Of a stretch of 64,000 nucleotides of DNA, positions 8,666 through 42,041 are shown one piece after another. The DNA comes from an uncultured Clostridium sp. Its GTDB lineage: Bacteria; Bacillota; Clostridia; TANB77; CAG-508. A model generated the notes under the pieces. The model was not told the origin of the DNA. It worked only from the letters and a program-made list of their open reading frames with translations, and did no database searches. The stretch's first letter is position 1. Every line of letters begins with the position of its first letter. The translations under genes were made by a program, and so were the position numbers. Location of the stretch: contig CANOWW010000006.1 of assembly GCA_947571115.1 (NCBI GenBank), positions 11,902 through 75,901 on the forward strand, read 5' to 3'.

Positions 8666-9400
8666 TTAATAGTTTACTTCCACCAAATACAACCCCACTG
8701 CTGGAAGCGTTTTCCCTGCTCGTTTTCGGTCTTTACTTTTGATAATATCCGGAATTTCTTCTGGATCTATTTTCCCCATTCCTACATCCAATAAAGTTCC
8801 TGCAATAATTCTAACCATATTATACAAAAATCCACTTCCTGTCAGTTCAATCCAAATTCTCTCCTCTTTTTCTAATACTTCTGCTTCAAAAATCTTTCTG
8901 ATACTATTCTTGCTACTCGTTCCGCTCGCCTTAAACGCTGCAAAATCATGTTCTCCTTCAAAATATTTTGCCGCTTTCCTCATCTTTTCCACATCTAACT
9001 TCATCGGAAATTGATATTCTAATTCACGAAAAATTGCTGTCCCAGTACTCGAACAATTCATCACATAACGATATTTTTTAAAATGCGCACAATAACGACT
9101 ATGAAAACGTTCTTCCACTTCTTCCGCTTTTTTGATTCGGATACTTTTTTTCAACTTTGAATTAATAGCCATCGCAAATTTGTCAATCGGAATATGACAA
9201 TTGGTTCTAAAATTAGCCACTTGCCCCAAAGCATGCACTCCTGCATCTGTTCTGCCAGAACCAATTAGTTCAATTGTTTCTCCTGTAATACTTCCAATTG
9301 CTCTTTCAATTTCTCCTTGAATGTTCAACTTATTGGGCTGTTTCTGCCAACCATTAAAGTCTTTCCCGTGATATTCGATGGTTAATTTAATATTTCGCAT
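8666..9400 (-). CDS. truA: tRNA pseudouridine(38-40) synthase TruA
   Basis: MRNIKLTIEYHGKDFNGWQKQPN ... RTDAGVHALGQVANF. The catalytic Asp motif, domain order and 244-aa length fit TruA. Confidence 0.85.
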   Translation of the reverse strand: MRNIKLTIEYHGKDFNGWQKQPNKLNIQGEIERAIGSITGETIELIGSGRTDAGVHALGQVANFRTNCHIPIDKFAMAINSKLKKSIRIKKAEEVEERFHSRYCAHFKKYRYVMNCSSTGTAIFRELEYQFPMKLDVEKMRKAAKYFEGEHDFAAFKASGTSSKNSIRKIFEAEVLEKEERIWIELTGSGFLYNMVRIIAGTLLDVGMGKIDPEEIPDIIKSKDRKRAGKTLPAVGLYLVEVNY

Positions 9401-28047: not shown

Positions 28048-28107
28048 AAGAGGGGCTGTTAAAAACAATACCTTGTTAACAGCCCCCTTGTCTATCCTCT
28101 TGTATCT

Positions 28108-29960
28108 TTAATTTATTTGTTCTACTAATACTCGATAAATATCAAGATTACCTGTAGAACTAGAATTACTCACCTTAAATTCTATTGCCCCCATAAATTG
28201 CGTTAATGTCATATTAATATAGTATGAGTAATTTCCTTTATAAAAGTAAGTCGTTCCAGCATTATTATACACTTCATAGTTGCCGTAAATCTAGCCCATT
28301 GCCAAACCATCTTACTCTGTATTCTCCTGCAGGCAATCCACAATACGGACCCCAAACATTTTGTCCCGGTATTAACCTAACAAACCCTTCAGAGAAATAT
28401 TCAGAATTTGCTCCATACATCATACCGCCTTTTTGGCATAAAGCTTACTTGCACTAATAAATTAGTGATTGAAATATTATTCTTTGTTTCAATACCAGCT
28501 CCGTTTTTACAATAAACTGTATAAATGATATTACTAAAATCAGTTCCTATTCCTGCCCCTCCATCTATCACTCCAGTATACCAATCTTCTGTATTTGCAT
28601 TAAAACTCGTATCCATACTCGTCCCATTGTTTCGCATCCAATTGATATCTCGATTTCCTGGTGCATATTTTTTCACACTAATTCCAGACACATCATCTGA
28701 AATCGTAGCATTTACCGTTTTTTGATATTCTTTCGTCATTGTATTCGTTTGTGCCAAATTTATCGTTGGCGCACTTGCATCCTTTTTCACTGTCAGTACT
28801 TTATTATCAGAGCGATTGCCCACATTATCTAAACTATATACCGTTATCGTCGTTTGTCCTTGATTAGAGACCATCAGAGTTTCACCATTTGCAATCTCTG
28901 TTTCCGATTTCGTTGTTGCTCCTGTCAACGCATACATTGTTTTTTGTACACCACTTTCACTATCCACACCTTCCGTAACTTTTATCGTAATATCACTCGT
29001 GTACCACGAATTTTCTCCTACTGTTCCCGCCGTAATTGCCAGCTCTGGACTACTTGGTTTCGTCTTATCAATATTACTAACTGTCGCGCTAGCTGCTGAA
29101 CCTCCCTGTTGTCCTGTACTGTCTCGCAAACAAACAAATAACGTTCCATTATTTTCAAATGTATACGAATTTCCATCTTCCCAATTCATCTTATCTGTAC
29201 TAATTTGCATTGTGTAGCCTGACATATTAATTTTTGGTTTTGCTGTCACTGTTACGTTTTGACTTGTCCAATCTTTAGTTGAATATTCAAATTCAATATT
29301 GGTCTCTGTCAGTTCTTGTACGAGTGTTGTTTTCACTTCTTTCGCGCTGCTTACATTACCATTCGCATCTTTCACCCAAATGTAATACATCGTATCATTC
29401 GTCAAATTTTCAATTGTGTATGTAAAATTTTTCTGTGCTGGACTAACTGAATTCCATGTCGTTGGCTCCACATTTGTCGCAGAATAATTCCAACCTGCCA
29501 CTCCTGCTAAAATATCTTTTGCCACAAACGTGATTGAATTTGTAGTCGAAGTTGCAGAAATACTTGGCGCCTTGTTGTCTTTTATGGTTCCGTCTGCTAA
29601 AACACCGCCTTCAATCGTCACTTCGCCATTGTCTGCAATGGCAATCACAGATGTATTTCCTTGTGAGTCAGTAAAATACAGCGTTCTGTCGTCGTCGCAC
29701 GCAAACATAACATTGCCAATTCGCCAAATTCCGTCTTCATTTTCTCCGCACTTTTTCTTAACATACTCTGATAAGGTTAGCCCGTTTTCCTTCCACATAA
29801 TAATCCATCATAATTTCTACTAATTTCAATTGCAATTCTTCCTCTGTTTGCGCCTGTTTAACGATGTCAACCGCTTTTGTCGCCTTCCCTAAAATCCCAT
29901 TGCTGCCGTGCAACCAGATTTAGGCTCACACCTGCAAAAATTAATAATACAATAATGGTC
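28108..29960 (-). pseudogene. Prepilin-like surface protein gene (third paralogue), 3' portion. Its 5' end is separated by a 14-kb element and it carries four single-G frameshifts.
   Basis: Residues FEYSTKDWTSQNVTVTAK...NWEDGNSYTFENNGTLFVCLRDSTGQQGGSAASATVSNIDKTKP parallel those of 5586..7853. Upstream remnants are TTRTIIVLLIFAGVSLNLVA, then GSNGILGKATKAVD..., then MDYYVEGK, then GLTLSEYVKKK. Frame changes occur at about 29907, 29783, 28423 and 28283, each at CC-G on the plus strand. The coding frames continue without a break down to ...VLVEQIN-stop at 28108. Confidence 0.7.
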
Positions 29961-30115
29961 CTAGTTGTCTATTAATTACAATTTTTAAACAACTTTTTTA
30001 TTTTCCAAATTATCCACACTTTTTATATTTAATTCTCTAAATTTATAATAAATCGTTATTTCTTTATCTTGAGAAATCTCAATTCGGTCAACTAATTGAA
30101 CTAATGCTGTTCTAT

Positions 30116-31641
30116 CTATATTTTCATCTTTACAAATTCTTTAACTATTTTTTTTAAGTCAACTTGTTTTTCTTCTGTATTACTATTTTTCAACTGTTCA
30201 ATCTGTTTTTCCATATTTTCTCTCATCTCAAGATTTTTCTTATAAATTCTTTCAAAATCAATTTCTGTTATTTTTCCTGAAATTTTGTCTTCATAAATTC
30301 TGTCTATTTTTTCATTTAAGCCCTTGACCTTTCTTTCCAATATTTTAATCTCATTTTGAATTGAATTTCTTCTTTTTTCAAATTGATTTTTTGTTTTTTT
30401 TGCTAAACTTTCAAACTTTTCTTCTTTTAAATATTCTCTGCATCTTGCTTTCACAGTTTCAAGTACAATTTCTGTTACTTTTTCCAAATTGTTCGAATGT
30501 GGCGTACACAATTTCAAACTTGGTACAGAAGCATAAGTGTTGCAACGCAAATAAGCAATTTCTTTGTTTTCTTTCTTATGAACTGCAATGCTCATTTGTT
30601 TCCCACATTCTTGGCAATAAATCAAGCCATGCAACAACCACTCATACTTTCTGCGTCTTGTTCTAGTCCTACTTTTAATTAATTGTTGCACAATTTCAAA
30701 TGTTCTTCGTCAATGATTGGCTCATGCATTCCTTTTCTAACAATCCAATCGTCTACTGGTATCATCAGAATCTTTTTACTTTTATAGCTTACTTTCTTGA
30801 GAGTTCCATTTTTTACCGAACCTAAATATGTAACATTTTGCAAAATTCTTTTGACTGTGTTTCTATTCCAACCTCGCTTAATTTCTGACTTATTCCTTGT
30901 ATGTGTATTTCCCACTACATCACTTGGCAACCTTGCTTTGTCTTCAGTCATAATTTTTGCAATTTCTGTTGGTGTTTTTCCTGATTTTGCTAGGTTAAAA
31001 ATCTTTTTTACGACTGGTGCAATTTCTTCATCAATTACATAATGATTTTTGTCGAGTGGGTCTTTTTTGTAGCCATAAGTCGCATAAGTTACCATTACTT
31101 TCCCCTCATTTGCCCTAGTTTTCTTACCATTTTTGATTTTTTTCGAACAATCTCTTAAATACCATTCATTAAAGAATGCCTTAAACTGCAACATATCTTC
31201 TGATGTCTCAATTTCGCCTGTGTCGATGTCGTCTGCAATTGCTATAAATCTCACACCTTTTTCAACAAAATATTCCTCCAGATAATACTCAACTTTTGAT
31301 GAATTCCTGCCAAATCTCGACAAATCTTTGACAATTACCATATTGATTTTGCCTGCTTCGATGTCTTTTATCATTCGCTTAAAACCTGGCCTATCGAAAT
31401 TTGCTCCTGAATAGCCATCATCTGTGTATGTATCGTAAATTTTGATTTTGTTGTCCTTGCAAAATTTCTTTAAGTAACTTTTTTGTGTACTAATGCTTCC
31501 ACTTTCTCGCTCTTGTTCGCTTTCTTCGCTTACATCTGCAAAATTATGATTTTTATATTCTATTTTTTCGTTTGAAAGTCTTGGATAAATTCCTGCTATA
31601 TATTTTTCAGGATTACTTATTGTTATCATCTTACCTCCCAT
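30116..31641 (-). CDS. Large serine recombinase (resolvase/invertase catalytic domain, recombinase domain and zinc-ribbon/coiled-coil), frameshifted near 30690
   Basis: ORF 30679..31641 carries the catalytic domain (YPRLSNE..., DGYSGANFDRPGFKRMIKDIEAGKINMVIVKDLSRFGRN). ORF 30116..30691 carries the zinc ribbon (WLLHGLIYCQECGKQ...LRCNTY) and a coiled-coil. The join reads ...IIDEE(H/T)FEIVQQLIKSR and needs a 1-nt indel in a short homopolymer. Confidence 0.8.
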
Positions 31642-31953
31642 CCTAACAATAAGTTTCCTCCTATCAATAATTAAGGCTATTATATTTCATTTTTTCTTAA
31701 AAGTCTAGTAAATCTCATCAAATTTTTTCATGCAATATTGAACAAATATTTTCTCCAATATTTGCTCCAAATTTTCCGCATTTTTACTACTCTTAAAAAC
31801 TTCTTTTACTATATATTCTTTTTTCATAGGCGTTCCTTTCTTATCTATTAATAGAAAACTTATTATTAGCTTTTTTCCTTGTTGCTATTTTAAGTCTCTA
31901 TTTTAAATAAGAAAAGAAAGCAAAATGAAAGGCAAAATTTTTAAAGTTATTTT

Positions 31954-33366
31954 TTAAAATCCAATTTTTCGCTTATTTTCAGCTTGATATTTACTTAAAT
32001 TTCTCTGCTTTAACATTTCTATATCCTCCAAAACAATCTCATTTGTATTTTTCAAATCATTATTTTTTGTTACTCGACTTGCTTGTATTATTTTCAGTTG
32101 CTCTGCAATATTTCTAATTTCTCTTGCATTTCCAAAATTTTTAACTTTTCTAATATCCAAAAAGTATTGAGTTAAGACCTGTTTACATTTTTCATTCACA
32201 AACAAATTATCTTCTTCTAAATACTTTTCAAATATTGCAAAAAGTTCATCATTTGTATAATTTTCAAAATCTATCACAAAATTTACTCTACTTTTCAAAC
32301 CTGAATTCATTTCAATAAATTCCTTCATCTCATTTGTATAACCTGCGAAAATGACGCAAAGTTTATCTTTTCGATTTTCCATTTCACGAATTAAAATATC
32401 AATCACATTATGTCCGTAATCTCTTGAATATTTATCTGAATAAAGTGAATATGCTTCGTCAATAAACAAGATTCCACCTGTTGCTTTTTCAATTATCTGC
32501 ATCGTCTTTTCTTCGGTTTCTCCAATATGTCTGCCAACCAAATCTGCTCTTGTCACTTCCACAAAAATTTTTTCATTACTTAATATTTTCATTTCAGATA
32601 ATATTTCTCCAAACAACCTTGCAACTGTCGTTTTTCCTGTTCCTGGATTGCCAAGAAAAAACATATGCAACATTGGAATCTTATTTTTAAATTTTTGCAA
32701 TTTCAAATAAGCAATAATCTCATTTAACGTTGTTTTTACTTTTGATAAACCAACTAATTTTTGCAATTCTTCCATTGCATTTTTTGTTTTCTCTTCTTTT
32801 AAAAATTCTGCAAAATAACTGTCTTTCACAATGTGGCTTTTCAATTTATTGGCTTCGCTACATGCTATTAAAACTGCTTTTTTAGCCTCTTGTATGTTTT
32901 GCTTAGAGAAAAACTCTAAAATATCTGAATTTTTCTCTAACTCAAAACCGTTTTCATAAATCATATTAAAAAGTATTGCCTTGTTCATTTCTTCCAAAGT
33001 TCCATTGTTTAAATCTATTATCCAATAAAAATCACTGTATCTCTTGTCTATTGGTAAAAATTTTTCTTTCGCAGTTTTGACAATATAGACATCTTCTCTA
33101 AAAGTCGTTGTAAATCTCTCGTCATTTTTAATTTCTATATAAATATCACTCAATTTACTTTTCAAAATATCTTCAATTAAACTTGCAACTTTCTCTAAAT
33201 AAATTTGCGTATAATCATTGATTACCACATGATAATTCTTGATTGAAAAATCCTTTTCAACCGTTAAATCAACATATTTTAAATAATGATATAATTCTCT
33301 TTTGGCTTTTTCATGAATTGCTAAAGCACGAATTTTCTTTTTGATTGCTCTATTTGGGTTCATCAT
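31954..33366 (-). CDS. SpoVK/CbbX-type AAA+ ATPase
   Basis: Walker A GNPGTGKTTVARLFGEIL, Walker B ILFIDEAYSL and arginine finger region. N-terminal helical domain. Length 470 aa. Confidence 0.7.
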   Translation of the reverse strand: MMNPNRAIKKKIRALAIHEKAKRELYHYLKYVDLTVEKDFSIKNYHVVINDYTQIYLEKVASLIEDILKSKLSDIYIEIKNDERFTTTFREDVYIVKTAKEKFLPIDKRYSDFYWIIDLNNGTLEEMNKAILFNMIYENGFELEKNSDILEFFSKQNIQEAKKAVLIACSEANKLKSHIVKDSYFAEFLKEEKTKNAMEELQKLVGLSKVKTTLNEIIAYLKLQKFKNKIPMLHMFFLGNPGTGKTTVARLFGEILSEMKILSNEKIFVEVTRADLVGRHIGETEEKTMQIIEKATGGILFIDEAYSLYSDKYSRDYGHNVIDILIREMENRKDKLCVIFAGYTNEMKEFIEMNSGLKSRVNFVIDFENYTNDELFAIFEKYLEEDNLFVNEKCKQVLTQYFLDIRKVKNFGNAREIRNIAEQLKIIQASRVTKNNDLKNTNEIVLEDIEMLKQRNLSKYQAENKRKIGF

Positions 33367-33653
33367 TAATCTTTATCCAACATTCTTAATATTCTAAAAC
33401 AATTTTTATAGCCTTGTTTGTATAAAAACATACTTTCTATATACATTAATTCATAAAAGCAATCAAAAAACTCGTCTTCCAATTTATCTTTATCCTTCTT
33501 ATCTTTTATCAAATCATTTAGAAATTTATGTAATTTTTCTAGTAAATCTCTATATTTCTCATTTTTCTTTTGTACTATTCTACTATATTCATTTTTGCTT
33601 TCCTGTAGAAAATAATCAATATTTTCCTGAAATTCATCTCTTAATTTTGTCAT
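33366..33653 (-). CDS. Small hypothetical protein (95 aa), translationally coupled to the AAA+ ATPase
   Basis: Its stop overlaps the downstream AAA+ start at 33366. Alpha-helical and charged. Confidence 0.4.
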   Translation of the reverse strand: MTKLRDEFQENIDYFLQESKNEYSRIVQKKNEKYRDLLEKLHKFLNDLIKDKKDKDKLEDEFFDCFYELMYIESMFLYKQGYKNCFRILRMLDKD

Positions 33654-33801
33654 AAAAATCCTCTCCTTTTTAAAAAATTTTCAAATTTTAGTTGAAAGTA
33701 GAGGACTACATATGCTATAATATTTATGTAGTTCTACTTTCAGTAGGACTGCCTTTGGAAGCGGTGTCGGAAAGGTTTGGCTACCAAGACACCTCTTCTT
33801 T

Positions 33802-34026
33802 TTATTTGTCCAATTTTCTAATTCCTCTACGAATACCTTCCATTTTTGAAATATTTTCCTTTTTGCAATAATTTTCCAATATCTCAAAAGTATCTTTATC
33901 CATTCTTACTGCAAGTCTAATATTCTTAGGGTTATCTGTTGGACGTCCTAACTTTTTGTTAGCCATTTTTCCTCCCTTCTTTTTGGCTGCCATAAATATA
34001 TTAACATTTTGGTCACCAAAAGTCAA
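33802..34026 (-). CDS. Ribbon-helix-helix (CopG-like) DNA-binding protein
   Basis: The likely real start is MANKKLGRPTDNPKNIRLAVRMDKDTFEILENYCKKENISKMEGIRRGIRKL, at about 33946. It shows the typical RHH beta-strand plus two helices. Confidence 0.45.
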   Translation of the reverse strand: MTFGDQNVNIFMAAKKKGGKMANKKLGRPTDNPKNIRLAVRMDKDTFEILENYCKKENISKMEGIRRGIRKLDK

Positions 34027-34126
34027 GGATTTTTTTAATTTTTTCTAAAAGTAGGATAAATTTCAAATCACTGGGTGATTTCTTACCATTTTTACTCCTA
34101 TTTTTAAATTTGTAAACATAAGCAAA

Positions 34127-34630
34127 TTAGCTTAAATTTAATAATTCTTTTAATGTATTCTCTGTAATTTTATGGTTTTCCTGTCGATAAAAATTTTTAA
34201 TCTTTTTAGATTGCATTTCTGAAATTTTAATATTTTCATTAACTATTAATTGATAAACTATGTTTTGTTCTTTTTTTCCTAAAAATGAAAGATGTTGTGC
34301 AACTTTTAAAGAAATTTTATGACTATCTAATATGTTTTGCAATTCCTGAATTAAATAATTAAATCTTAAATGTCTTTGAATGTTTCCCATTGAGGTATGT
34401 TGTTCCTTTACCATTTTATCCATAATTTCTTTATACTTTAACCCCATTTTCTTTAAAGCCAGCATTTTTAATTTATATGCTCTTGCTCTTTCTGTTGGTT
34501 TAATCTCTTTTCTTCTAAAACTATCTAAATATTGTTGCATTTTCTCATCATTTCGTATTCTTTCAAATTCTTCCATAGTCCTATTGCGAACTTCCTGACA
34601 GATTTTTTCTTCATTTTTTAAATTGTTCAT
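34127..34630 (-). CDS. ParB-like HTH DNA-binding protein (KorB/ParB C-terminal-type, no N-terminal ParB/Srx domain)
   Basis: The region MGNIQRHLRFNYLIQELQNILDSHKISLKVAQHLSFL matches the ParB helix-turn-helix and its following region. Confidence 0.45.
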   Translation of the reverse strand: MNNLKNEEKICQEVRNRTMEEFERIRNDEKMQQYLDSFRRKEIKPTERARAYKLKMLALKKMGLKYKEIMDKMVKEQHTSMGNIQRHLRFNYLIQELQNILDSHKISLKVAQHLSFLGKKEQNIVYQLIVNENIKISEMQSKKIKNFYRQENHKITENTLKELLNLS

Positions 34631-34839
34631 ATTTATTTTCCTCCTAGTATAATAAATTTGAAGTAATTTACTTCATATATTTATTTTAGAACATATTTTG
34701 TTTTAAAAAAAGAAAGCAAAAAGAAAGGCAAAAAACAATAACTTGTAATAATTTGATTATAAATATACTAAAATCCTATAAATTTACCAAGTGAACTTTT
34801 AAACTCTAATCTAAGTCTTTGATTTGCAATTTAACTCTT

Positions 34840-34930
34840 TCTAAAACGCTTGCGTTTTATGTGTTTAAAGTCCAAACGTGAGTTGGACTTATCCTGCCTT
34901 TAGGGCTCACCAAAGGTAACTTGGTGAATT
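34840..34930. other. Cluster of three short hairpins in a non-coding gap between the ParB-like gene and the helicase gene (candidate parS/oriT-like or small RNA)
   Basis: The three hairpins are AAACGC / GCGTTT, AGTCCAA-ACGTGAG-TTGGACT, and TCACCAA-AGGTAAC-TTGGTGA. Confidence 0.25.
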
Positions 34931-35205
34931 TATATCAAAAATCACACATTTGATGAAATTCTACTAAGAACAAAATTTTTCTTATAAACTTCTGCCATAA
35001 TTTTATTGTGTTAGGTAGTTGAATACAAGACAAAAAGATTTGAAATACTTATAAAATACTGTTAGAAAAAATCTTGTTAACAAAAATTTGAAAAATACCA
35101 ATCCTCCAAAATAGAGTGGACCCATGAATAATTATAAGCCTTCAGTTGAAGAAATTATATTTAGAGAATTGATATATTATTAAAATAAAAGAGTAGCGAA
35201 GATAG

Positions 35206-36216
35206 CTACTCTCTATTTACTTTAGATATTGTGGAATATACATTCTTTGTTGTTCTAGTAATTGCTGTATATAAATTTTTAACATTTAGTGATTTTCCAA
35301 TAATAACTACATCTTGATTTATTGTACTCCCCTTGGATTTTTTTATGGTTTGTTTATCACCTTTCCATTTATCTAAAATTTCTTTATTTGAACCTGTATT
35401 AGAAGAATATAATAATACTCTTTTTCCGTTATCATACTGCAAAACATCTGAAAATTTAATTTCTTTATACTCGCCACTACTTGAATTTCCAAATATATCA
35501 ATATTTAAATTATTTCTTATCCATGCACAAATTTTATCTGAACATCTAAAAGTTTGATTTTTGTATTCATTAGCAGGCAAACTTTCAAACCATTGTCCTC
35601 CACCATTTATATTTTGATTATCATCTCCTAATAAAATTAATTTGATACTCGAGTTATATAATAGTTTTGCAAATTCTTCTCTATATGCTTTCAAATCCTG
35701 TGCCTCATCTATTATGATATATGAAAACCTAGCAGCAAGAAATTCAATAATCTTATCAGCATACTGTTTAATTATATAAAACGATAATTCTGCTCTCAAT
35801 TGGTTGGTTATATTTAGGCTATCCTTACCAAATATATATTTGATAAATTGACTATTAATAAAATTTTTCATTAAATGTAACTCATCATTCTTTATATTTA
35901 AATTTATAATTGTTTTCTTTTCTTTATTATATATACTACCATTTTCGTTTATCTTTATATTTGCAACTCCCTTTAAGTATGTTGGTAATATTTTGGAATC
36001 TCTATAATTAATAGTACTACCTGATGCAATCAATGGAATTGCAGATGTGAATTTAGGAATAATAAAACTAGAAAAAAGCGAGTCAATTGTTTTGCATAAA
36101 TATCCTTTATTTCTAAGTTCGTTTACAACACTATTATTAAATGCTAAATATATGCCATTTTTATGTTCATTCATATATTCTTCTGAATATGTAGTTTTTC
36201 CTGCACCAGCACACAT
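35206..36216 (-). CDS. UvrD-like (superfamily 1) helicase, GajB-like, N-terminally short
   Basis: Walker A sits at the extreme N-terminus (MCAGAGKTT). Motif II is IIIDEAQDL. The ATG directly abuts the upstream TAA. Length is 336 aa, whereas GajB is about 490 aa. Confidence 0.6.
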   Translation of the reverse strand: MCAGAGKTTYSEEYMNEHKNGIYLAFNNSVVNELRNKGYLCKTIDSLFSSFIIPKFTSAIPLIASGSTINYRDSKILPTYLKGVANIKINENGSIYNKEKKTIINLNIKNDELHLMKNFINSQFIKYIFGKDSLNITNQLRAELSFYIIKQYADKIIEFLAARFSYIIIDEAQDLKAYREEFAKLLYNSSIKLILLGDDNQNINGGGQWFESLPANEYKNQTFRCSDKICAWIRNNLNIDIFGNSSSGEYKEIKFSDVLQYDNGKRVLLYSSNTGSNKEILDKWKGDKQTIKKSKGSTINQDVVIIGKSLNVKNLYTAITRTTKNVYSTISKVNRE

Positions 36217-36582
36217 TTAATTACTTTTGAATTCATTTTTTATCTCCTCTATTGTGTGCCAATTACTTAAATCAATATCATTCTCAATTAATCTTTCGGC
36301 TATTTCAACTTTTTTCTTATGCTTTGCTACATGGAATTCAGAATATTTTTTATGTTTCTCTAACAAATCATTGCAATTATTTAAGAAACCATTTATGTAT
36401 AAATCAGTTTCTAAAGTATTTTCAATCTCAATCAATTTAATATTTTTCTCGGTACATAGCAACTTTAAATTACTAAACCTAGATGATGGTTCTTGCCTAT
36501 CTGATAATAATTTATCATTATCACTTACTACTATCACCTTTTTGTTTAATAGACTTGCTAACTGAATATACGGTTCAAACAT
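36217..36582 (-). CDS. TOPRIM-domain fragment of an OLD-family nuclease (GajA C-terminal-like)
   Basis: NVAGVMFEPYIQLASLLNKKVIVVSDNDKLL aligns with the GajA region LLEVGGTYFNHYVCTLNDLGITHIIKTDNDLK. The first TOPRIM strand with its Glu motif is missing. The frame differs from the upstream ATPase ORF. Confidence 0.5.
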   Translation of the reverse strand: MFEPYIQLASLLNKKVIVVSDNDKLLSDRQEPSSRFSNLKLLCTEKNIKLIEIENTLETDLYINGFLNNCNDLLEKHKKYSEFHVAKHKKKVEIAERLIENDIDLSNWHTIEEIKNEFKSN

Positions 36583-36626
36583 TACACCCGCAACATTTAT
36601 AATTGTCCAATTATAATTATTTTTAC

Positions 36627-37592
36627 TTAAATAATTCTTCCTGGATGTAAAAATGTATTTAATTTTTTTATATAAGTTTCATTTAGTGAATTAATACTTG
36701 TTCCTGAAATATCTATGATTTCTTCCATTTTTAATTCATTAATAACAACTGATGAATGAGTTGTTGAAATAATAATAGTGTTAGCTACATTTCTTAGTTC
36801 TCTTATTAAAGTTCTTATTAGAGCTGGATGAAGATGATTTTCAATTTCATCAATTAAGATTATATTGAAGTTTTCATCTAAAGTATTTAACATTATATTA
36901 GCTATGCTTTTATATCCTGATCCAATATGAAAATTGTGTTCTTTATTACCATCTACTATATACACTTTCTCATCTGAAATTTTGGGATCAGTCAATTCAA
37001 CATCTAAATTTTCATTAAATTTTTCACATAGTTCTTTAAATTTTTTTGTTTTGCTAGCTAACTCTTGCTTTATAGCTTTTTTAGAGTCAGCTTTTAATTC
37101 TTTATATCTTTCTTCTGAATCAATAAAAGTTGAAATACCTGTTGTTAATCCTGCTGTATAAATATCTTCTATTCTAATTAATGGTATTAAATATAAGTTT
37201 GGAATACATTCATCTTCTCTTACGATATCTACATCAATATTAGTTCCGTTTAATAATGAAAAGGTTTTAATATATCTTCCTGATTTAGTTTTCTTTATAC
37301 AAGTAATAAATCCGCATTTGTTTTGCCCATTATCATCAAAGTTAAGGCTAGATATTGAATTATATTGTAATTCAACACTTATTTTTATTACATTATTATC
37401 TTCACTATCTTTAAAATCACTATCTGATATTTTAAAATAACCATTAGTAATTGCTGAAAAAGCTAGTCTAATTCCATCCAATAGATTCGTTTTTCCCGAA
37501 TTGTTCTTTCCTATAATTACATTTAAAGTATTATTAAATTCATATTTTCCATCTAAATTTCTAAAGTTTTTAAAAGTTACACTTTTTATCAT
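36627..37592 (-). CDS. OLD-family/ABC-type ATPase domain (GajA N-terminal-like)
   Basis: Walker A IIGKNNSGKTNLLDGIRLAF, Walker B ILIDEIENHLHP and the H-loop region TTHS. Length 321 aa. Confidence 0.65.
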   Translation of the reverse strand: MIKSVTFKNFRNLDGKYEFNNTLNVIIGKNNSGKTNLLDGIRLAFSAITNGYFKISDSDFKDSEDNNVIKISVELQYNSISSLNFDDNGQNKCGFITCIKKTKSGRYIKTFSLLNGTNIDVDIVREDECIPNLYLIPLIRIEDIYTAGLTTGISTFIDSEERYKELKADSKKAIKQELASKTKKFKELCEKFNENLDVELTDPKISDEKVYIVDGNKEHNFHIGSGYKSIANIMLNTLDENFNIILIDEIENHLHPALIRTLIRELRNVANTIIISTTHSSVVINELKMEEIIDISGTSINSLNETYIKKLNTFLHPGRII

Positions 37593-37927
37593 AAATTACC
37601 TCTCACTTGCTTTTTACTAAATTTTCATACGTCTTCTCACTTTAGCTACATAATCAGATCCAGTCATTTTCTTCCAATAAAAGCCGTAAACTTCTATTAC
37701 TGGTTTATTATTTTCTTGATGTGCTTTTCGTAACTCTTTGTCATTGTTAGTTCATCATATAAATTGCTATTGAAACTTTTGAATATAAAGCTCTTCAATC
37801 TAATATTGCTCTCACATTTTTCTTTATTAAATCTAAAACAGGTATTTATTTTATTAAATAACATTAATAAATAGTTTTGAATAGTTAATTATTTATATCA
37901 CATAGATTGTTTGATGTAGTAATGCCT

Positions 37928-38977
37928 TTATTCTTCATTTTCTCTTAAAACTTTTTCAACTTCTTTTATCAATTGTTCTTTATCAGGAATACAATACGTA
38001 TATTGTGAAGCAAATATATTATTATTTAACCCTTCTAATGAATACTCTGCAACAATCTCATCTTTTTCCGCACATAATACAATTCCTATTGGCTTGTTAT
38101 CTTCTTCTGAATTTACTTCTTTTTCATAATAATTTAAATACATATTCATTTGTCCCATATTTTCTGGTTTCAAATGTCCTATTTTCAAATCAATTAATAC
38201 ATAGCATTTCAATATTTTATTATAAAATACCATATCTACATAGTAATGCGTATTTCCTAATGTTACTCTTTGTTGTGAACCAACAAACATAAATCCTTTG
38301 CCTAATTCAAGTAAAAAATCTTCAATATGCTTAATCAATTTATATTCTAAATCTTTTTCTAGTACAGGTTTATTTTCTGGTATTCCTAAAAATTCAAATA
38401 CGTATGGATCTTTTAATATATCTTGTGGTTTTTCTATTACCTGTCCTTCTTTTGCTAATTTTAAAACTTTTTCTTTATTTACTTTTCCATCAGATAATAA
38501 TAATCTTTCATAAAGTGACGATTCTATCTGCCTTTTTAATTCTCTAACAGCCCATTTTGAATTGACACATTCTTTTTCATAAAAGTCTCTTTTTTCCTTT
38601 TCTTTAATCAGCACCAATTCGCAATAATGCGACCAAGACAATTTGCCAGACGTCTGGCATTTTGGATAATATTGATAAAAAAGTCTCATATTTTGTAAAT
38701 TTGTACGAGAAAATCCTTTTCCTAATTCATTTTTTAATTTTTTAGACAAATTAAGTAATAAACCTTTTCCATATTCTGCCTTGCTATTTCCGTTTTGTTC
38801 TTCTTCTACGATTTTTCTCCCAATAGCCCAATAACATTTTAATTGTTCATGAATCATTTCGTCTTTTAACTTTTCCCTAGATTTTATCACTAATTCTGTT
38901 ATTTCCTTTGATAAATTATCTAGTATTAACTCATTATTATCCATTAGATTTCCTCCATTTTTCAAGCATTTTATCAT
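37928..38977 (-). CDS. DUF1016/YhcG-family PDDEXK nuclease-fold protein
   Basis: N-terminal region ...YWAIGRKIVEEEQNGNSKAEYGKGLLLNLSKKL..GKGFSRTNLQNMRLFYQYYP matches the DUF1016 N-domain. The C-terminal PD-(D/E)XK-like core is ...YVDMVFYNKILKCYVLIDLKIG. Confidence 0.65.
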   Translation of the reverse strand: MIKCLKNGGNLMDNNELILDNLSKEITELVIKSREKLKDEMIHEQLKCYWAIGRKIVEEEQNGNSKAEYGKGLLLNLSKKLKNELGKGFSRTNLQNMRLFYQYYPKCQTSGKLSWSHYCELVLIKEKEKRDFYEKECVNSKWAVRELKRQIESSLYERLLLSDGKVNKEKVLKLAKEGQVIEKPQDILKDPYVFEFLGIPENKPVLEKDLEYKLIKHIEDFLLELGKGFMFVGSQQRVTLGNTHYYVDMVFYNKILKCYVLIDLKIGHLKPENMGQMNMYLNYYEKEVNSEEDNKPIGIVLCAEKDEIVAEYSLEGLNNNIFASQYTYCIPDKEQLIKEVEKVLRENEE

Positions 38978-39055
38978 ATTTTTTTACTTTTGTATATATT
39001 TTCTACGAATTTACCAGACGTCTGGCAAATTGAATTTTTTATCTTTTTTTCAAAT

Positions 39056-40012
39056 CTATCTTAAACATTCTTCCAAAAACTTATAAACTACTTCCTTTTC
39101 TGTATCATTAAATTTATGTTCATCATCAAATCTAATTAATTTAAAATTAGGATTATCTTCAACTGTTTTCTCGATTTTATCAATTCCTGTCAAAGGGCAA
39201 TGTCTATCATCTTTCAAACCAGTTGTCATAATTAATTTTCTATTTTGAACAATATCATTAATAATACTATCCATATCACAATATTTTAGTAAATTAGGAA
39301 TACATAACCATGCATTGTTTTGATAACCATTCGCTAAAAAATCTTCGATACAACTTGTTCCACATGAAGATGCTACAACTTTTATTCTCTCGTCAAACCA
39401 TGAAATCCATATTGCTTCTTGACCTCCAAGAGAATGACCAATTGCACCAATTCGATTAGAATCCACAATATCAAAACTACAAAGTACATCTATCGCTCTA
39501 CTTAAATCTGTTAACGTTTTTGCTTGTAATGTAGAACCTTTATTCAGATATTTGATTGCCTGAAACCTTTCAAAAAATCTATGTGCCTCTTTATTTTCTT
39601 TGTATTGTTCTTTGTATTGTTCGTTTCCGATTCTACTTTCAAAACATAATATGTCTGGTGCAATGACAACATATCCTTGCTTTACTAAATCTAGTCCATA
39701 AGAATACATTTCATCATTTGTTAATCCAACAACTTCGGACTTTCCAATCTCCCAATTACTATGATGTTGATGTATAGCCAATATTCCTGGAACTTTTCCA
39801 ACAATATTTTTAGGAATTAGTACATAAGCTTGTACTTTTTCAATAATTTTATTATCTTGCACTCTGATTTTTTCATCACACTTTTCAACTGTATATTCAA
39901 TTAATTTTCTCTCATAATCTCCCATATTTTCGGAAGATATTTCTCTTATGTCTAAATCAACTTTTTCTGGAAAATCTCCTAAGCATTTCAGAATATCATT
40001 TCTATTAGCCAC
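39056..40012 (-). CDS. Alpha/beta hydrolase (dienelactone-hydrolase/esterase-like)
   Basis: Nucleophile elbow GHSLGG. Length 318 aa with alpha/beta-hydrolase-fold spacing. Confidence 0.6.
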   Translation of the reverse strand: MANRNDILKCLGDFPEKVDLDIREISSENMGDYERKLIEYTVEKCDEKIRVQDNKIIEKVQAYVLIPKNIVGKVPGILAIHQHHSNWEIGKSEVVGLTNDEMYSYGLDLVKQGYVVIAPDILCFESRIGNEQYKEQYKENKEAHRFFERFQAIKYLNKGSTLQAKTLTDLSRAIDVLCSFDIVDSNRIGAIGHSLGGQEAIWISWFDERIKVVASSCGTSCIEDFLANGYQNNAWLCIPNLLKYCDMDSIINDIVQNRKLIMTTGLKDDRHCPLTGIDKIEKTVEDNPNFKLIRFDDEHKFNDTEKEVVYKFLEECLR

Positions 40013-40013
40013 T

Positions 40014-40787
40014 TTATTGTCCTCCTATTATTTCTAATTTGTTATTATCAAATTTATAGTGATATATATGAACAGATTTCCCATCATTTACGCCTATTAT
40101 AGAACCTTTTTCATCCCATATTTTATATACAAATGGCTCTTGAAAGTGCTGTTTTAAGAAATTATATACCTGTACATATAATAGATTATACATATCTGTT
40201 TCATCAATATCTTCAACGTTTTGCAGTTTTTCATGATTTGTTAGTTTTTTAATAATCTTCCAACCCAAATAATTTTCTTCCATTTTATATGGTTCAAATC
40301 CCATATCCATATATACTTTTACAGCTAACCAAGTATGCGTTTGAGTATGTAATAATGTTTTTTTATGCCCTAATCTTCTCATTTGTTTTAAAGTTTCTGA
40401 TATTAAAGGCTTTGATAAATGTTTGCCTTGATATTCTCTTTTTACTGATACCCAATGAACATTACCTGTAATGTCATTTTCTGGTTTATCTAAATAAAAA
40501 GCCGTTGAAGTAGCAATTTTATCTCCATTTTGATTCTCAATAAAAATACACATTTTCTTCAATTCCTCATAATGCATTCCATAATAATGATGAAAGGCTT
40601 CCATTCCTTCCTCAAAAGATAAAAATTCTCCTGCTGACATTTCTATTTCAACCCAATCTTTTTCATCTCCATCATTAAAATATACAAATCTATAACCATC
40701 TGGTAACTTATAATCGATTATATTATCTAAATCATTATGAACTAAATATAGATTCACATATTTCAATGTTCTATTGATACTATCCAT
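40014..40787 (-). CDS. GNAT-family N-acetyltransferase
   Basis: The C-terminal region ...HWVSVKREYQGKHLSKPLISETLKQMRRLGHKKTLLHTQTHTWLAVKVYMDMGFE matches the GNAT motif A/B region. Confidence 0.55.
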   Translation of the reverse strand: MDSINRTLKYVNLYLVHNDLDNIIDYKLPDGYRFVYFNDGDEKDWVEIEMSAGEFLSFEEGMEAFHHYYGMHYEELKKMCIFIENQNGDKIATSTAFYLDKPENDITGNVHWVSVKREYQGKHLSKPLISETLKQMRRLGHKKTLLHTQTHTWLAVKVYMDMGFEPYKMEENYLGWKIIKKLTNHEKLQNVEDIDETDMYNLLYVQVYNFLKQHFQEPFVYKIWDEKGSIIGVNDGKSVHIYHYKFDNNKLEIIGGQ

Positions 40788-40802
40788 AATTCCTCCTATA
40801 TT

Positions 40803-41294
40803 TTATTTTCTTTCAAAACAATACCATACATCCATTTCGTCTTTACTTGGCTTCTCAAATTTATTTAGAACTTTTTTCTTCAACCCCTCATCAACATAAA
40901 AATCCGAACCACCATTTCCAGCCTCAACTTTTCTATTTCTTTCGTTAATATTTTCTTCCCATAAATCATCTTTAATATCAATGTAATGCCATTCAATATT
41001 AACATTTTTACTCTTAAAATATTCTGTTACTTCATTTCTTTGCTTTTTAGTCCAAAATCCCCAATCTAAAATAATATTACATCCTATTTTTACAAGTTCC
41101 ACTGACTTTTTCATTAAATATTTATTTACTTTTAAGCAAAAATCATCATAAGATTCGCCTTGTTCATTATCAATCAAATCATAAGTTACTTCATCAGTTG
41201 ATAAAATAACCGCGTTTTCTTTTTCCTTTATTGAATCAGCGTAGCATGTTTTTCCGCTACATATTTTACCACATATTGCAATTATTTTACTCAT
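40803..41294 (-). CDS. P-loop NTPase / small kinase-like protein
   Basis: The likely start is MSKIIAICGKICSGKT (Walker A), with a GGAGGA ribosome-binding site 5 nt upstream. It sits 1 nt from the stop of the SWIM-domain ORF. Confidence 0.55.
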   Translation of the reverse strand: MSKIIAICGKICSGKTCYADSIKEKENAVILSTDEVTYDLIDNEQGESYDDFCLKVNKYLMKKSVELVKIGCNIILDWGFWTKKQRNEVTEYFKSKNVNIEWHYIDIKDDLWEENINERNRKVEAGNGGSDFYVDEGLKKKVLNKFEKPSKDEMDVWYCFERK

Positions 41295-41295
41295 T

Positions 41296-41910
41296 CTATT
41301 CCTCCGCTTTTCCAAAATTATCCAATTCTTCCTCGAACATTTCTTCAATAACAACTGAAAAATCCCTTAAAACATTATTTTTAATTGCCTCATTTAGCCA
41401 ATCCAAAATCTCTTTCTTTATATTTTTATCTTTGCATTTTTGCAATATTTCTTGAATAATCTCTGCACAATCACTTGCCATAAGGAACATATTCCCATCA
41501 TAATCATCAATATCTAAATTTGGTATTTTTTCTAATATTAAAATTGCTATCCAAAAAGATACTTGATATTCTTTTTTCTCAATTAAATCTTCTGCTTCTT
41601 GTATATAAACATACATTCGTTCTAAAAATCGATTTACTTTATGAAAAGCAATAAAACCAGTTCTTCCCATTGCTCGCTCTATCGTTCTCGATATTCTTTT
41701 TTCATAAGCCTCTTTTGAATTTTCTTCAAAATCTTGTCTCTCTATTTTCTTTTTATCTTTTATATTTTCCTCTTTTTCAATATAATACAAAAATGCTGCC
41801 ATATGTTTACAATTCTCTCTTCTTCCATAAGGGCAAGTGCATTTCGCATTCACAATTTCTCCCTGCTCATCTATTTCTACTCTCACCTTATATTCTTCTG
41901 TTCCATCCAC
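41296..41910 (-). CDS. SWIM zinc-finger domain protein
   Basis: The segment AKCTCPYGRRENCKHMAAFLYYI carries the CxCxnCxH SWIM signature. Length 204 aa. Confidence 0.55.
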   Translation of the reverse strand: MDGTEEYKVRVEIDEQGEIVNAKCTCPYGRRENCKHMAAFLYYIEKEENIKDKKKIERQDFEENSKEAYEKRISRTIERAMGRTGFIAFHKVNRFLERMYVYIQEAEDLIEKKEYQVSFWIAILILEKIPNLDIDDYDGNMFLMASDCAEIIQEILQKCKDKNIKKEILDWLNEAIKNNVLRDFSVVIEEMFEEELDNFGKAEE

Positions 41911-42041
41911 TAATCCTTCATAGCAATTGCCATCTTTCGTGACATCATATATTAAATCTTGTTTATAATATTGATATCCTCTTTTTAAAATTTCCCATCA
42001 AATAAATCTTCAAACTTTAACTCCATAAATTTCCTCTTTCA

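What the first reader, a model, noticed from the sequence alone, without database searches (positions are those of the whole stretch)
35206..37592. Gabija-like defence cassette with a split GajA homologue and a shortened GajB-like helicase
The gene order is OLD-family/ABC ATPase (36627..37592), then TOPRIM fragment (36217..36582), then UvrD-like helicase (35206..36216). This matches gajA-gajB. The ATPase and TOPRIM domains lie in different frames. The first TOPRIM strand with its conserved Glu is absent. The helicase begins directly at its Walker A (MCAGAGKTT) immediately after the TOPRIM stop. The cassette is therefore either a decayed Gabija or a distinct three-ORF variant. The single nearby CCG does not explain the split.
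Basis: partly seen in the sequence, partly recalled or inferred. Interest (0 to 1): 0.6.

Follow-up and report, generated by a model that had tools for sequence, protein, structure and literature searches.

The report
Dead remnant of compact Gabija cassette
The three ORFs are a recently broken copy of a small two-gene Gabija-type anti-phage system (OLD-family nuclease plus UvrD-like helicase): a 67-base deletion removed the nuclease's catalytic strand and a 1-base deletion broke the helicase start, so this is an ordinary defence-gene relic and not a new three-gene variant.

Summary
On the minus strand lie an ABC/OLD-type ATPase ORF (36627-37592), a TOPRIM fragment (36217-36582) and a UvrD-like ORF (35206-36216).

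Relatives 97-98% identical in protein encode one 480-aa ATPase-TOPRIM protein and a 343-aa helicase that overlaps it by 20 nt. Against them the window carries two lesions:
- A 67-nt deletion (junction 36636|36635) removes TOPRIM strand beta1 and the invariant Glu332, and shifts the frame.
- A 1-nt deletion (36211|36210) falls in codon 9 of the helicase. The native start at 36236 keeps its Shine-Dalgarno but now yields a 21-aa peptide.

Both lesions recur in independent metagenome assemblies, so they are real. dN/dS of 0.12-0.15 indicates recent inactivation.

The helicase is not truncated by decay, because the whole family is 340-349 aa.

The intact cassette is cargo of a 10.3-kb Tn4451-type mobilisable transposon. 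The window keeps only the transposon's right-hand third, inside a 16.5-kb strain-specific island whose recombinase is also frameshifted.

Interest is low. The most notable side observation is a species-wide split uvrA next to the island.

The parts
36627..37592 (-). gajA pseudogene, 5' part. It holds codons 1-319 of the ancestral 480-codon gene (ABC/OLD-type ATPase, Walker A GKNNSGKT), followed by two out-of-frame codons and a stop (...HPGRII*).
   Evidence: ORF. Pfam AAA_15/AAA_21 and PADLOC GajA hits. 97% identical to residues 1-319 of intact 480-aa proteins.
36635..36636 (.). Junction of the 67-nt deletion, corresponding to L001 positions 8958-9024. The lost sequence encodes NELMLADNIILVEGYTEEVLLKH, that is TOPRIM strand beta1, the invariant Glu332 and half of the next helix. 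The deletion also shifts the frame.
   Evidence: Global DNA alignment. Junction coordinates. Glu332 is invariant in 35 relatives. beta1 spans 327-331 and the helix 334-347 in the AF2 model.
36217..36639 (-). gajA pseudogene, 3' part. It holds ancestral codons about 341-480, including the DxD motif (VVSDNDK), and now lies in another frame. The listed ORF2 (36217-36582) is the stretch from the first in-frame ATG. That ATG has no proper Shine-Dalgarno.
   Evidence: tblastn of GajA 341-480 against 36639-36220 gives 94% identity. PADLOC GajA C-terminal hit. Upstream sequence.
36171..36236 (-). Native gajB start. The ATG at 36236 is preceded by GAGGAG and overlaps the gajA 3' end by 20 nt. Because of the frameshift it now encodes a dead-end 21-aa peptide, MNSKVIKCVLVQEKLHIQKNI*.
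   Evidence: Relatives start M(N/D)S.VIK.VAG.GKTT.
36210..36211 (.). Site of the 1-nt deletion (an A, TGTGTAGCT becomes TGTGTGCT) in codon 9 of gajB, just before the Walker A.
   Evidence: The same lesion is present in independent assemblies L007 and L008.
35206..36216 (-). gajB pseudogene body. The 336-aa ORF runs from a fortuitous internal ATG with no Shine-Dalgarno. It is 94% identical to residues 10-343 of intact 343-aa UvrD-like partners and lacks strand beta1 (residues 3-8) of the RecA-like 1A domain.
37593..37714 (-). Upstream non-coding region of gajA shared with the transposon copies, including the Shine-Dalgarno GAGAGG. This is the left limit of homology to the Tn4451-type element.
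35061..35177 (+). tnpV remnant holding only the last 39 codons, at 59% identity. About 276 bp of the gene are deleted.
34957..35018 (.). Remnant of the sequence next to the transposon's right terminus. Homology ends 10 bp or less from the terminus (...CTCTCCCAA|).
28066..44595 (.). Strain-specific low-GC island of about 16.5 kb between uvrA and pfkB. It contains the Gabija relic. Sister strains have about 100 bp at this position.
   Evidence: Composition. Empty site in L077-L079 and alignment breakpoints.

Best explanation
The locus is a recently inactivated copy of a compact Gabija-type defence module. I infer that it is now non-functional.

**Ancestral form.** This is shown in close relatives. 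It consists of two translationally overlapping genes. The first is a 480-aa OLD-family protein with an ABC ATPase and a TOPRIM nuclease domain that has the invariant Glu332 and the D380-x-D382 motif. The second is a 343-aa minimal SF1 UvrD-like protein. The pair is carried as cargo on a 10.3-kb Tn4451-family mobilisable transposon.

**Presumed working mechanism of intact copies.** By analogy with B. cereus Gabija, which is an inference, the intact pair would assemble into a GajA-GajB complex. Its TOPRIM nuclease would cut phage DNA under nucleotide control.

**State in the window lineage.**
- A 67-nt deletion excised TOPRIM strand beta1 and the catalytic Glu and shifted the frame.
- A separate 1-nt deletion at codon 9 of the helicase gene uncoupled its body from its ribosome-binding site and removed strand beta1 of the P-loop domain.
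- The transposon's left two thirds (tnpX, tnpW, mob and other cargo) are gone and tnpV is mostly deleted.
- The recombinase of the surrounding island is frameshifted twice.

The three ORFs are therefore gene fragments produced by decay, not a designed three-gene system.
For: 1. **Intact form.** Proteins 97-98% identical to ORF1 are 480 aa and carry PF20469 OLD-like TOPRIM. P0009 alone is on 311 contigs. In L001-L006 it is followed by a 343-aa UvrD-like gene with a 20-nt overlap.
2. **Lesions.** The DNA alignment shows exactly two lesions in otherwise colinear coding sequence at 92-95% identity: a 67-nt deletion and a 1-nt deletion.
3. **What was lost.** The deleted segment contains invariant V331-E332-G333 and strand beta1 in a confident AF2 model (pLDDT 82). 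The equivalent Glu379 of B. cereus GajA is an invariant active-site residue, and GajA[E379A] is described there as catalytically dead (PMC10781630).
4. **Translation signals.** The native gajB ATG keeps GAGGAG but now gives a 21-aa product. The ORF2 and ORF3 ATGs have no Shine-Dalgarno.
5. **Not an artefact.** The same allele is found in three independent assemblies at 99.6-100% identity and in an NCBI contig.
6. **Gene structure in relatives.** 16 of 18 species-level relatives have one gajA ORF of 480-490 aa and a helicase ORF of 340-349 aa.
7. **Timing.** dN/dS is 0.12-0.15 in all three pieces with no further stops, which indicates recent inactivation.
8. **Surrounding decay.** There is a tnpV remnant, the rest of the transposon is missing, and the island recombinase needs three frames.
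9. **Family assignment.** PADLOC GajA scores 8e-33 and GajB 4e-11 on the intact proteins. The PDB profile search hits TsOLD (9e-13) and GajA (6e-9). Fold search hits TsOLD and GajA (E 1e-14 to 1e-17) and UvrD/PcrA/GajB.
Against: - No expression or phenotype data exist, so loss of function is inferred from sequence.
- ORF1 keeps its promoter-proximal region, its Shine-Dalgarno and a complete ATPase domain, so a 321-aa ATPase is probably still made.
- ORF3 starts directly at the ORF2 stop (TAA-ATG), so some re-initiation cannot be excluded.
- The low dN/dS cannot by itself distinguish a very recent pseudogene from a still-selected fragment.
- The intact family is itself atypical for Gabija. GajA is 480 aa against 578 aa, and its closest solved structure is the class 1 OLD nuclease. 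GajB is 343 aa against 494 aa. No member has been tested for defence.
Confidence: 0.9

Rival explanations
1. This is a functional three-gene variant in which the ATPase and the TOPRIM nuclease act as separate subunits, as in PARIS (AriA/AriB), together with a minimal helicase.
For: ORF1 scores about as well on PADLOC AriA (1.7e-22) and PtuA models as on GajA. The three ORFs are uninterrupted and abut one another. The allele is present in several samples.
Against: - ORF2 lacks strand beta1 and the invariant catalytic Glu, and it lacks a Shine-Dalgarno.
- ORF2 matches only GajA C-termini and no AriB or other stand-alone TOPRIM model.
- The arrangement differs from the one-gene form by a single 67-nt deletion at 95% nucleotide identity.
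- The allele is seen in one host lineage only, on 3-5 contigs, against hundreds of contigs for intact alleles.
- The helicase carries its own frameshift.
Confidence: 0.03
2. There is a partial residual function. The stand-alone 321-aa ATPase, and possibly a re-initiated helicase, is retained for some other role, for example as a dominant-negative or regulatory partner of another OLD or ABC-type system.
For: ORF1 retains its upstream region, its Shine-Dalgarno and the full ATPase. dN/dS is low. Other nuclease-null alleles that keep the ATPase exist in the transposon population, such as the E332 GAA-to-TAA allele on at least 9 contigs and a frameshift near residue 402 on 8 contigs.
Against: - Truncated forms are a small minority, about 3-4 of 120 cluster representatives. 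That is what ordinary mutational decay would give.
- Both genes and the neighbouring mobile-element genes are broken in the window.
- No second OLD-type partner is evident nearby.
Confidence: 0.06
3. The split is a sequencing or assembly artefact, and the real genome has intact genes.
For: Several frameshifted genes lie within 17 kb (uvrA, the recombinase, gajA and gajB), which could suggest error-prone sequence.
Against: - The identical lesions occur in three independent short-read metagenome assemblies from different samples.
- A 67-nt deletion is not a typical read error.
- The 1-nt deletion is not in a homopolymer.
- The uvrA frameshift is shared by many strains.
Confidence: 0.01

Closest known systems
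Gabija (GajA/GajB; class 2 OLD nuclease plus UvrD-like partner), e.g. Bacillus cereus VD045
   Same: The gene order is an OLD-family ABC-ATPase/TOPRIM gene immediately followed by an SF1 UvrD/PcrA/Rep-like gene. The intact relatives have Walker A, the invariant TOPRIM Glu and DxD. PADLOC GajA and GajB models are the best hits. Profile and fold matches reach the solved GajA and GajB structures.
   Different: The family is much smaller: 480 aa against 578 aa for GajA, and 343 aa against 494 aa for GajB. Only about 15-18% identity is seen in structural alignments. The nuclease is at least as close to class 1 TsOLD as to GajA, and is too short to hold the roughly 50-aa class-2 TOPRIM insert described in PMC10568477. 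The helicase is a bare 1A/2A-type core. The window copy is broken in both genes.
Class 1 OLD nucleases (Thermus scotoductus OLD, PDB 6P74; P2 Old)
   Same: This is the best solved-structure match by profile (8.7e-13) and by fold (E 5.5e-17, TM 0.58). The size is similar, 480 aa against 528 aa.
   Different: Class 1 is defined as stand-alone. Here a UvrD-like gene is always fused by a 20-nt overlap, which is the class 2 (Gabija) criterion.
PARIS (AriA ABC ATPase + AriB TOPRIM as separate proteins)
   Same: There is a superficial resemblance in the window: an ATPase ORF followed by a separate TOPRIM ORF. ORF1 scores on AriA models.
   Different: The separation here is a deletion scar. ORF2 lacks the catalytic Glu and strand beta1 and has no AriB-type hit.
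Tn4451/Tn4453 family of integrative mobilisable elements (TnpX, TnpV, TnpW, TnpZ)
   Same: The intact cassette sits in a 10,265-bp element. That element has a 555-aa large serine recombinase (Resolvase+Recombinase+Zn_ribbon+DUF4368), TnpW, a Mob_Pre (MobV) relaxase and TnpV. It is 98.3-99.99% identical across several insertion contexts. The family's properties are described in PMC5704250.
   Different: The cargo is a defence cassette plus Bro-N, GATase and nitroreductase genes instead of catP/catD. In the window only the right-hand third survives, and it cannot move.

Membership tests
Gabija / class 2 OLD (GajA) | N-terminal ABC-type ATPase domain with Walker A | tested here: met
   ORF1 matches AAA_15 (7e-20), AAA_21 (1e-17) and PADLOC GajA (7e-23). 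The GKNNSGKT motif is present.
Gabija / class 2 OLD (GajA) | C-terminal TOPRIM domain with the invariant Glu plus DxD in the same polypeptide | tested here: not met
   In the window the Glu and strand beta1 are deleted and the rest lies in another frame. DxD survives in ORF2. In intact relatives the feature is met: PF20469 is present and E332, D380 and D382 are invariant.
Gabija / class 2 OLD (GajA) | [quoted passage not shown] | tested here: met
   ORF3 matches UvrD-helicase (6e-9) and PADLOC GajB (4e-10). The adjacency is conserved in 18 of 18 related loci. The window copy is frameshifted at codon 9.
Gabija / class 2 OLD (GajA) | Class-2-specific helical insert in TOPRIM, making the protein larger than class 1 (PMC10568477) | tested here: inconclusive
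   The family is 480-490 aa, shorter than class 1 TsOLD (528 aa) and GajA (578 aa). The best structural and profile hit is class 1 TsOLD. No residue-level structural alignment of the insert region was made.
Gabija (GajB) | SF1 UvrD-like fold with 1A/1B/2A/2B domains (about 494 aa in B. cereus) | tested here: inconclusive
   The AF2 model has pLDDT 92.5. Foldseek hits UvrD, PcrA and Rep (E about 1e-8), and GajB chains 8tk1_F, 8sm3_B and 8iud. At 343 aa it can hold only a reduced set of domains. PADLOC's short GajB model (369 aa) is the best match but covers only profile positions 2-189.
Gabija | Anti-phage protection; GajA:GajB 4:4 complex; nucleotide-gated nicking | not testable with these tools
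   No experimental data exist for any member of this compact family.
PARIS (AriA/AriB) | Stand-alone TOPRIM (AriB) protein with a complete active site next to the AriA ATPase | tested here: not met
   ORF2 hits only GajA C-termini in PADLOC and has no Pfam or NCBIfam hit. The catalytic Glu is absent.
Tn4451/3-family mobilisable transposon | TnpX large serine recombinase, TnpZ (MobV) relaxase, TnpV and TnpW between defined ends | tested here: not met
   The window holds only a 39-codon tnpV remnant and the right-end-proximal sequence. It has no tnpX, tnpW or mob of this element. The feature is met in L001-L006, L066 and L069.

The most novel reading that the evidence does not exclude
The intact relatives may define a minimal Gabija: a class-1-sized OLD nuclease coupled to a roughly 340-aa bare SF1 core, spread by an active Tn4451-type transposon through gut Clostridia, Bacilli and Saccharibacteria. 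Its nuclease may be costly enough to be knocked out repeatedly at the TOPRIM active site. Examples are the 67-nt deletion here, E332 GAA-to-TAA on at least 9 contigs, and other frameshifts. On this reading the window allele is one of several selected nuclease-null states rather than neutral decay.
Probability: 0.1. Interest if true: 0.45.

Novelty: new member of a known kind. Interest (0 to 1): 0.2.

Why it matters
In itself it matters little. It is one more inactivated defence locus, of the kind that PADLOC's authors note are common among annotated pseudogenes (PMC9252829).

It is useful as a caution. Abutting ATPase, TOPRIM and helicase ORFs can look like a new split architecture, or like PARIS, when they are only deletion scars. 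An automated defence finder might still score ORF1 and ORF3 as Gabija.

The comparison also brought out three things:
- A compact 480 + 343 aa OLD/UvrD-like family that could serve as a minimal model for Gabija-type systems.
- That family's carriage on an apparently active Tn4451-type element.
- An unrelated, species-wide split of uvrA, which may deserve its own look.

Tried and rejected
- **Single-sequence PDB search.** The intact GajA-like protein reached only PtuA and Rad50 ABC regions, and the helicase found nothing. A profile and fold searches were needed.
- **ORF2 in Pfam and NCBIfam.** Neither gave any hit. Only PADLOC did.
- **Genome scan.** The genome-contig scan did not return the window's own genome, so the organism is named only as an uncultured Clostridia bacterium. 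That rests on the names of UvrA relatives at 85% identity and on the presence of SpoIVA.
- **Exact look-ups.** These gave no organism names.
- **Literature.** A search for Tn4451+TnpX+TnpV+TnpZ found nothing, so a looser search was used. One paper reading failed on a term that was too short.
- **Programmed frameshift or phase variation as the cause of the gajA split.** I rejected this, because a 67-nt deletion with only 1-2 nt of microhomology is neither reversible nor slippery.
- **Helicase as an accessory of the Mob_Pre relaxase.** I rejected this, because the pair occurs without any transposon genes in 17 genomes.
- **Assembly error.** I rejected this on the evidence of the independent assemblies.
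Full report
**1. The observation**

On the minus strand the window has three abutting ORFs: 36627-37592 (321 aa), 36217-36582 (121 aa) and 35206-36216 (336 aa).

- ORF1 is an ABC/OLD-type ATPase. It matches Pfam AAA_15 at 7e-20 and AAA_21 at 1e-17. Its best PADLOC model is GajA at 7e-23, with AriA and PtuA close behind.
- ORF2 has no Pfam or NCBIfam hit. It matches only the C-terminal part of two PADLOC GajA models (PDLC00102 positions 417-522 of 532, 8e-7).
- ORF3 is UvrD-like. It matches PF00580 at 6e-9 and PADLOC GajB at 4e-10, best against a 369-aa short GajB model.
- ORF1 and ORF2 are in different frames. ORF3 starts MCAGAGKTT immediately after the ORF2 stop.

**2. What the intact form looks like**

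A homology search with ORF1 returned 269 proteins. The closest are 97-98% identical, 480 aa long, and additionally carry PF20469 (OLD-like TOPRIM). One of them, P0009, is on 311 contigs.

In six loci that encode P0009 the gene is followed by a 343-aa UvrD-like gene overlapping it by 20 nt.

A search with ORF3 returned 252 proteins. The 120 listed are almost all 339-349 aa long, down to 52% identity. The small size of the helicase is therefore the family norm and not truncation.

In 18 species-representative genomes (Clostridia, uncultured Bacilli, Acholeplasmatales, Christensenella, Saccharibacteria and one Bacteroidota MAG):
- 16 have one gajA-like ORF of 480-490 aa (one further locus, L019, lists a 522-aa ORF over the match, presumably from an upstream start) and a helicase ORF of 340-349 aa (355 aa in L025) beginning M.S.VIK.VAG.GKTT.
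- L026 is independently split.
- L027 gave no ORFs under code 11.

The two genes stay together in 17 of these loci without any transposon genes nearby, and their identities to the reference fall in parallel. They form an autonomous two-gene module.

**3. The lesions**

I made a global DNA alignment of the window's minus strand with intact locus L001. The coding sequence is colinear at 92-95% identity, with exactly two lesions.

*Lesion (i), in gajA.* A 67-nt deletion corresponds to L001 8958-9024, with its junction at window 36636|36635 and 1-2 nt of microhomology. It removes the codons for NELMLADNIILVEGYTEEVLLKH and shifts the frame.
- In an alignment of 35 relatives, V331, E332, G333, E336 and E337 are invariant.
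- In a confident AlphaFold model of P0009 (pLDDT 82.4, pTM 0.78), residues 327-331 are the first TOPRIM strand and 334-347 the following helix.
- The corresponding Glu379 of B. cereus GajA is described as an invariant active-site residue. GajA[E379A] is used there as the catalytically dead control (PMC10781630).

*Lesion (ii), in gajB.* A 1-nt deletion (an A, TGTGTAGCT becomes TGTGTGCT) lies between window 36211 and 36210, in codon 9 of the helicase.
- The native ATG at 36236 still has its GAGGAG Shine-Dalgarno but now gives MNSKVIKCVLVQEKLHIQKNI*.
- The 336-aa ORF uses a fortuitous ATG with no Shine-Dalgarno.
- It lacks residues 1-7, that is most of strand beta1 (residues 3-8) ahead of the P-loop in a pLDDT-92.5 model of the intact protein.
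- The ORF2 ATG also lacks a usable Shine-Dalgarno.

**4. The lesions are real and recent**

The exact 321-aa, 121-aa and 336-aa products are on record from NCBI, ENA and Logan assemblies.

Three independent metagenome contigs carry the same arrangement and neighbours. They match the window at 99.94% over 15.4 kb, at 99.6%, and at 100%. Both lesions are present wherever the contig covers them. This excludes an assembly artefact.

Nei-Gojobori dN/dS between the window copy and L001 is 0.119 for gajA codons 1-319, 0.123 for the gajA 3' part and 0.146 for gajB. No other stops or indels are present. The cassette was therefore under purifying selection for most of the 5-8% divergence, and it was broken recently.

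**5. Context**

*The carrier transposon.* In L001-L006, L066 and L069 the intact cassette lies in one element. The gene order is:
- a TnpX-like 555-aa large serine recombinase
- TnpW
- a Mob_Pre relaxase
- a Bro-N protein in some copies
- a GATase
- a nitroreductase
- a 297-aa ORF
- gajA and gajB
- TnpV

This element has the following properties:
- It spans L001 711-10975 (10,265 bp).
- It is 98.3-99.99% identical between contigs.
- It has defined ends and sits in at least three different flanking sequences.
- It fits the Tn4451/3 family of serine-recombinase, MobV-type integrative mobilisable elements with low target specificity (PMC5704250).

*What the window retains.* The window keeps only L001 7878-10630 and 10907 to about 10966:
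- That is the gajA upstream region, the two genes, the last 39 codons of tnpV (window + strand 35061-35177), and sequence reaching to within 10 bp of the right terminus.
- About 276 bp of tnpV and everything to the left of gajA are gone.

*The surrounding island.* The relic lies in a low-GC island:
- Sister strains at about 91% nucleotide identity have uvrA followed directly by pfkB. This delimits the island as window 28066-44595, or 16.5 kb.
- The island's own large serine recombinase (29988-31641) is only 33-38% identical to the transposon's TnpX. It needs three reading frames to match a 548-aa relative, which means two frameshifts.
- The relic therefore sits in an immobilised, decaying island.

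**6. Family assignment of the intact form**

- PADLOC GajA models give 8e-33 for P0009, and GajB models give 4e-11 for the partner.
- A profile of 35 relatives hits T. scotoductus class 1 OLD (6p74, 8.7e-13). It also hits B. cereus GajA (6e-9) over profile positions 4-390 against GajA residues 5-441.
- Foldseek on the model gives 6p74 at E 5.5e-17 (TM 0.58) and GajA chains at E about 1e-14 (TM 0.58-0.60), followed by retron Eco8 and PtuA.
- The partner model matches UvrD, PcrA and Rep (E about 1e-8). GajB chains are among the hits, with 8tk1_F at rank 4 and the highest identity.
- By the published criterion, an OLD nuclease with an adjacent UvrD-like gene is class 2, which is synonymous with GajA (PMC10568477). 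The module is therefore Gabija-type.
- In size and closest structure, however, the nuclease resembles class 1, and the helicase is a reduced SF1 core. No member has been tested experimentally.

**7. Rivals**

- *A functional split architecture like PARIS* is very unlikely. ORF2 lacks the catalytic Glu, strand beta1 and a ribosome-binding site, and it hits no stand-alone TOPRIM model. The arrangement is one deletion away from the one-gene form. The helicase is separately broken. The allele is confined to one host lineage.
- *A residual role for the stand-alone ATPase* cannot be excluded. Other nuclease-null alleles exist in the transposon population: E332 GAA-to-TAA on at least 9 contigs, a frameshift near residue 402 on 8 contigs, an in-frame loss of the ABC core, and the L026 split. 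Truncated forms, however, are only about 3-4 of the 120 listed cluster representatives, which is compatible with ordinary decay.
- *An assembly artefact* is excluded.

**8. Verdict**

The 'shortened' helicase is a family trait plus a 7-residue loss caused by a frameshift.

This is a new, dead member of a known kind, and interest is low. The most interesting by-products are the compact 480 + 343 aa Gabija-type family on an apparently active Tn4451-type element, and a species-wide split of uvrA next to the island.

Noticed in passing
window 44590-47473 (- strand); frameshift near 45690: uvrA is split by a +1 insertion after ...GGNVVAQ, at UvrA model position about 576 of 943, which lies between its two ABC modules. 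The N piece is 45581-47473 and the C piece 44590-45735. All relatives at 95% identity or more, on many contigs from NCBI, ENA and Logan, share the same shift point. Intact UvrA of about 940 aa appears only at 90% identity or less. The split is therefore ancestral to a species-level clade. It could be a functional two-piece UvrA, recoding, or a species deficient in nucleotide excision repair.
   Followed up: partly
window 28066-44595: A strain-specific low-GC island of 16.5 kb lies between uvrA and pfkB. Sister strains (L077-L079) have about 100 bp there instead. Its genes are:
- an OmpL47-like beta-barrel protein
- a broken serine recombinase
- a SpoVK/CbbX-like AAA ATPase
- a ParB-HTH protein
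- the Gabija relic
- a YhcG/DUF1016 PDDEXK nuclease
- a DLH hydrolase
- a GNAT protein
- an AAA_33 kinase
- a SWIM protein
   Followed up: partly
window 29988-31641 (- strand): The island's large serine recombinase is a pseudogene. Three reading frames are needed to cover a 548-aa relative (P0296), which means two frameshifts. One of them is an AAA-to-AA change in ...IIDEE(T)F.... It is only 33-38% identical to the TnpX of the Gabija-carrying transposon.
   Followed up: partly
L001 711-10975 (also L002-L006, L066, L069): A 10,265-bp Tn4451-family mobilisable transposon carries the intact compact Gabija cassette plus Bro-N, GATase and nitroreductase genes. It is 98.3-99.99% identical in several insertion contexts, which suggests recent activity. 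Its ends are ...a|AGGAGCACTACC and CTCTCCCAA|.
   Followed up: partly
L066 6001-7443; proteins P0246, P0243, P0258; L026 6001-7451: Independent gajA-null alleles occur in relatives:
- a nonsense mutation exactly at the TOPRIM Glu codon (GAA to TAA, ...NIILV*) on at least 9 contigs
- a frameshift near residue 402 on 8 contigs
- an in-frame deletion of the ABC core
- another split (303+182 aa) in an Anaeroplasmataceae MAG
   Followed up: partly
L027 (CP091726.1, Bacilli bacterium MAG, 1.46 Mb): The gajA/gajB-like region gives no ORF of 100 aa or more under genetic code 11, although tblastn matches it. This may reflect a TGA=Trp (code 4) host, or heavy decay.
   Followed up: no
window 31954-33653 and 33802-34630 (- strand): A 470-aa SpoVK/CbbX/EccA-like AAA+ ATPase has a long N-terminal extension of unknown type and a 95-aa ORF that overlaps it by one base (both include position 33366). 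Beyond these lie a small 74-aa ORF and a ParB-HTH protein. Their function in the island is unknown.
   Followed up: no
window 37928-38977 (- strand): A YhcG/DUF1016 PDDEXK nuclease gene lies directly upstream of the Gabija relic, beyond the left limit of homology to the transposon. Its 90%-identity cluster has 233 members on contigs up to 1.5 Mb.
   Followed up: no
window 50977-52240: Internal repeats of about 65-76% identity lie within the 808-aa ORF 49811-52237. They showed up as multiple off-diagonal blastn matches to the homologous Big_7/Glyco_hydro_25 gene of L077.
   Followed up: no
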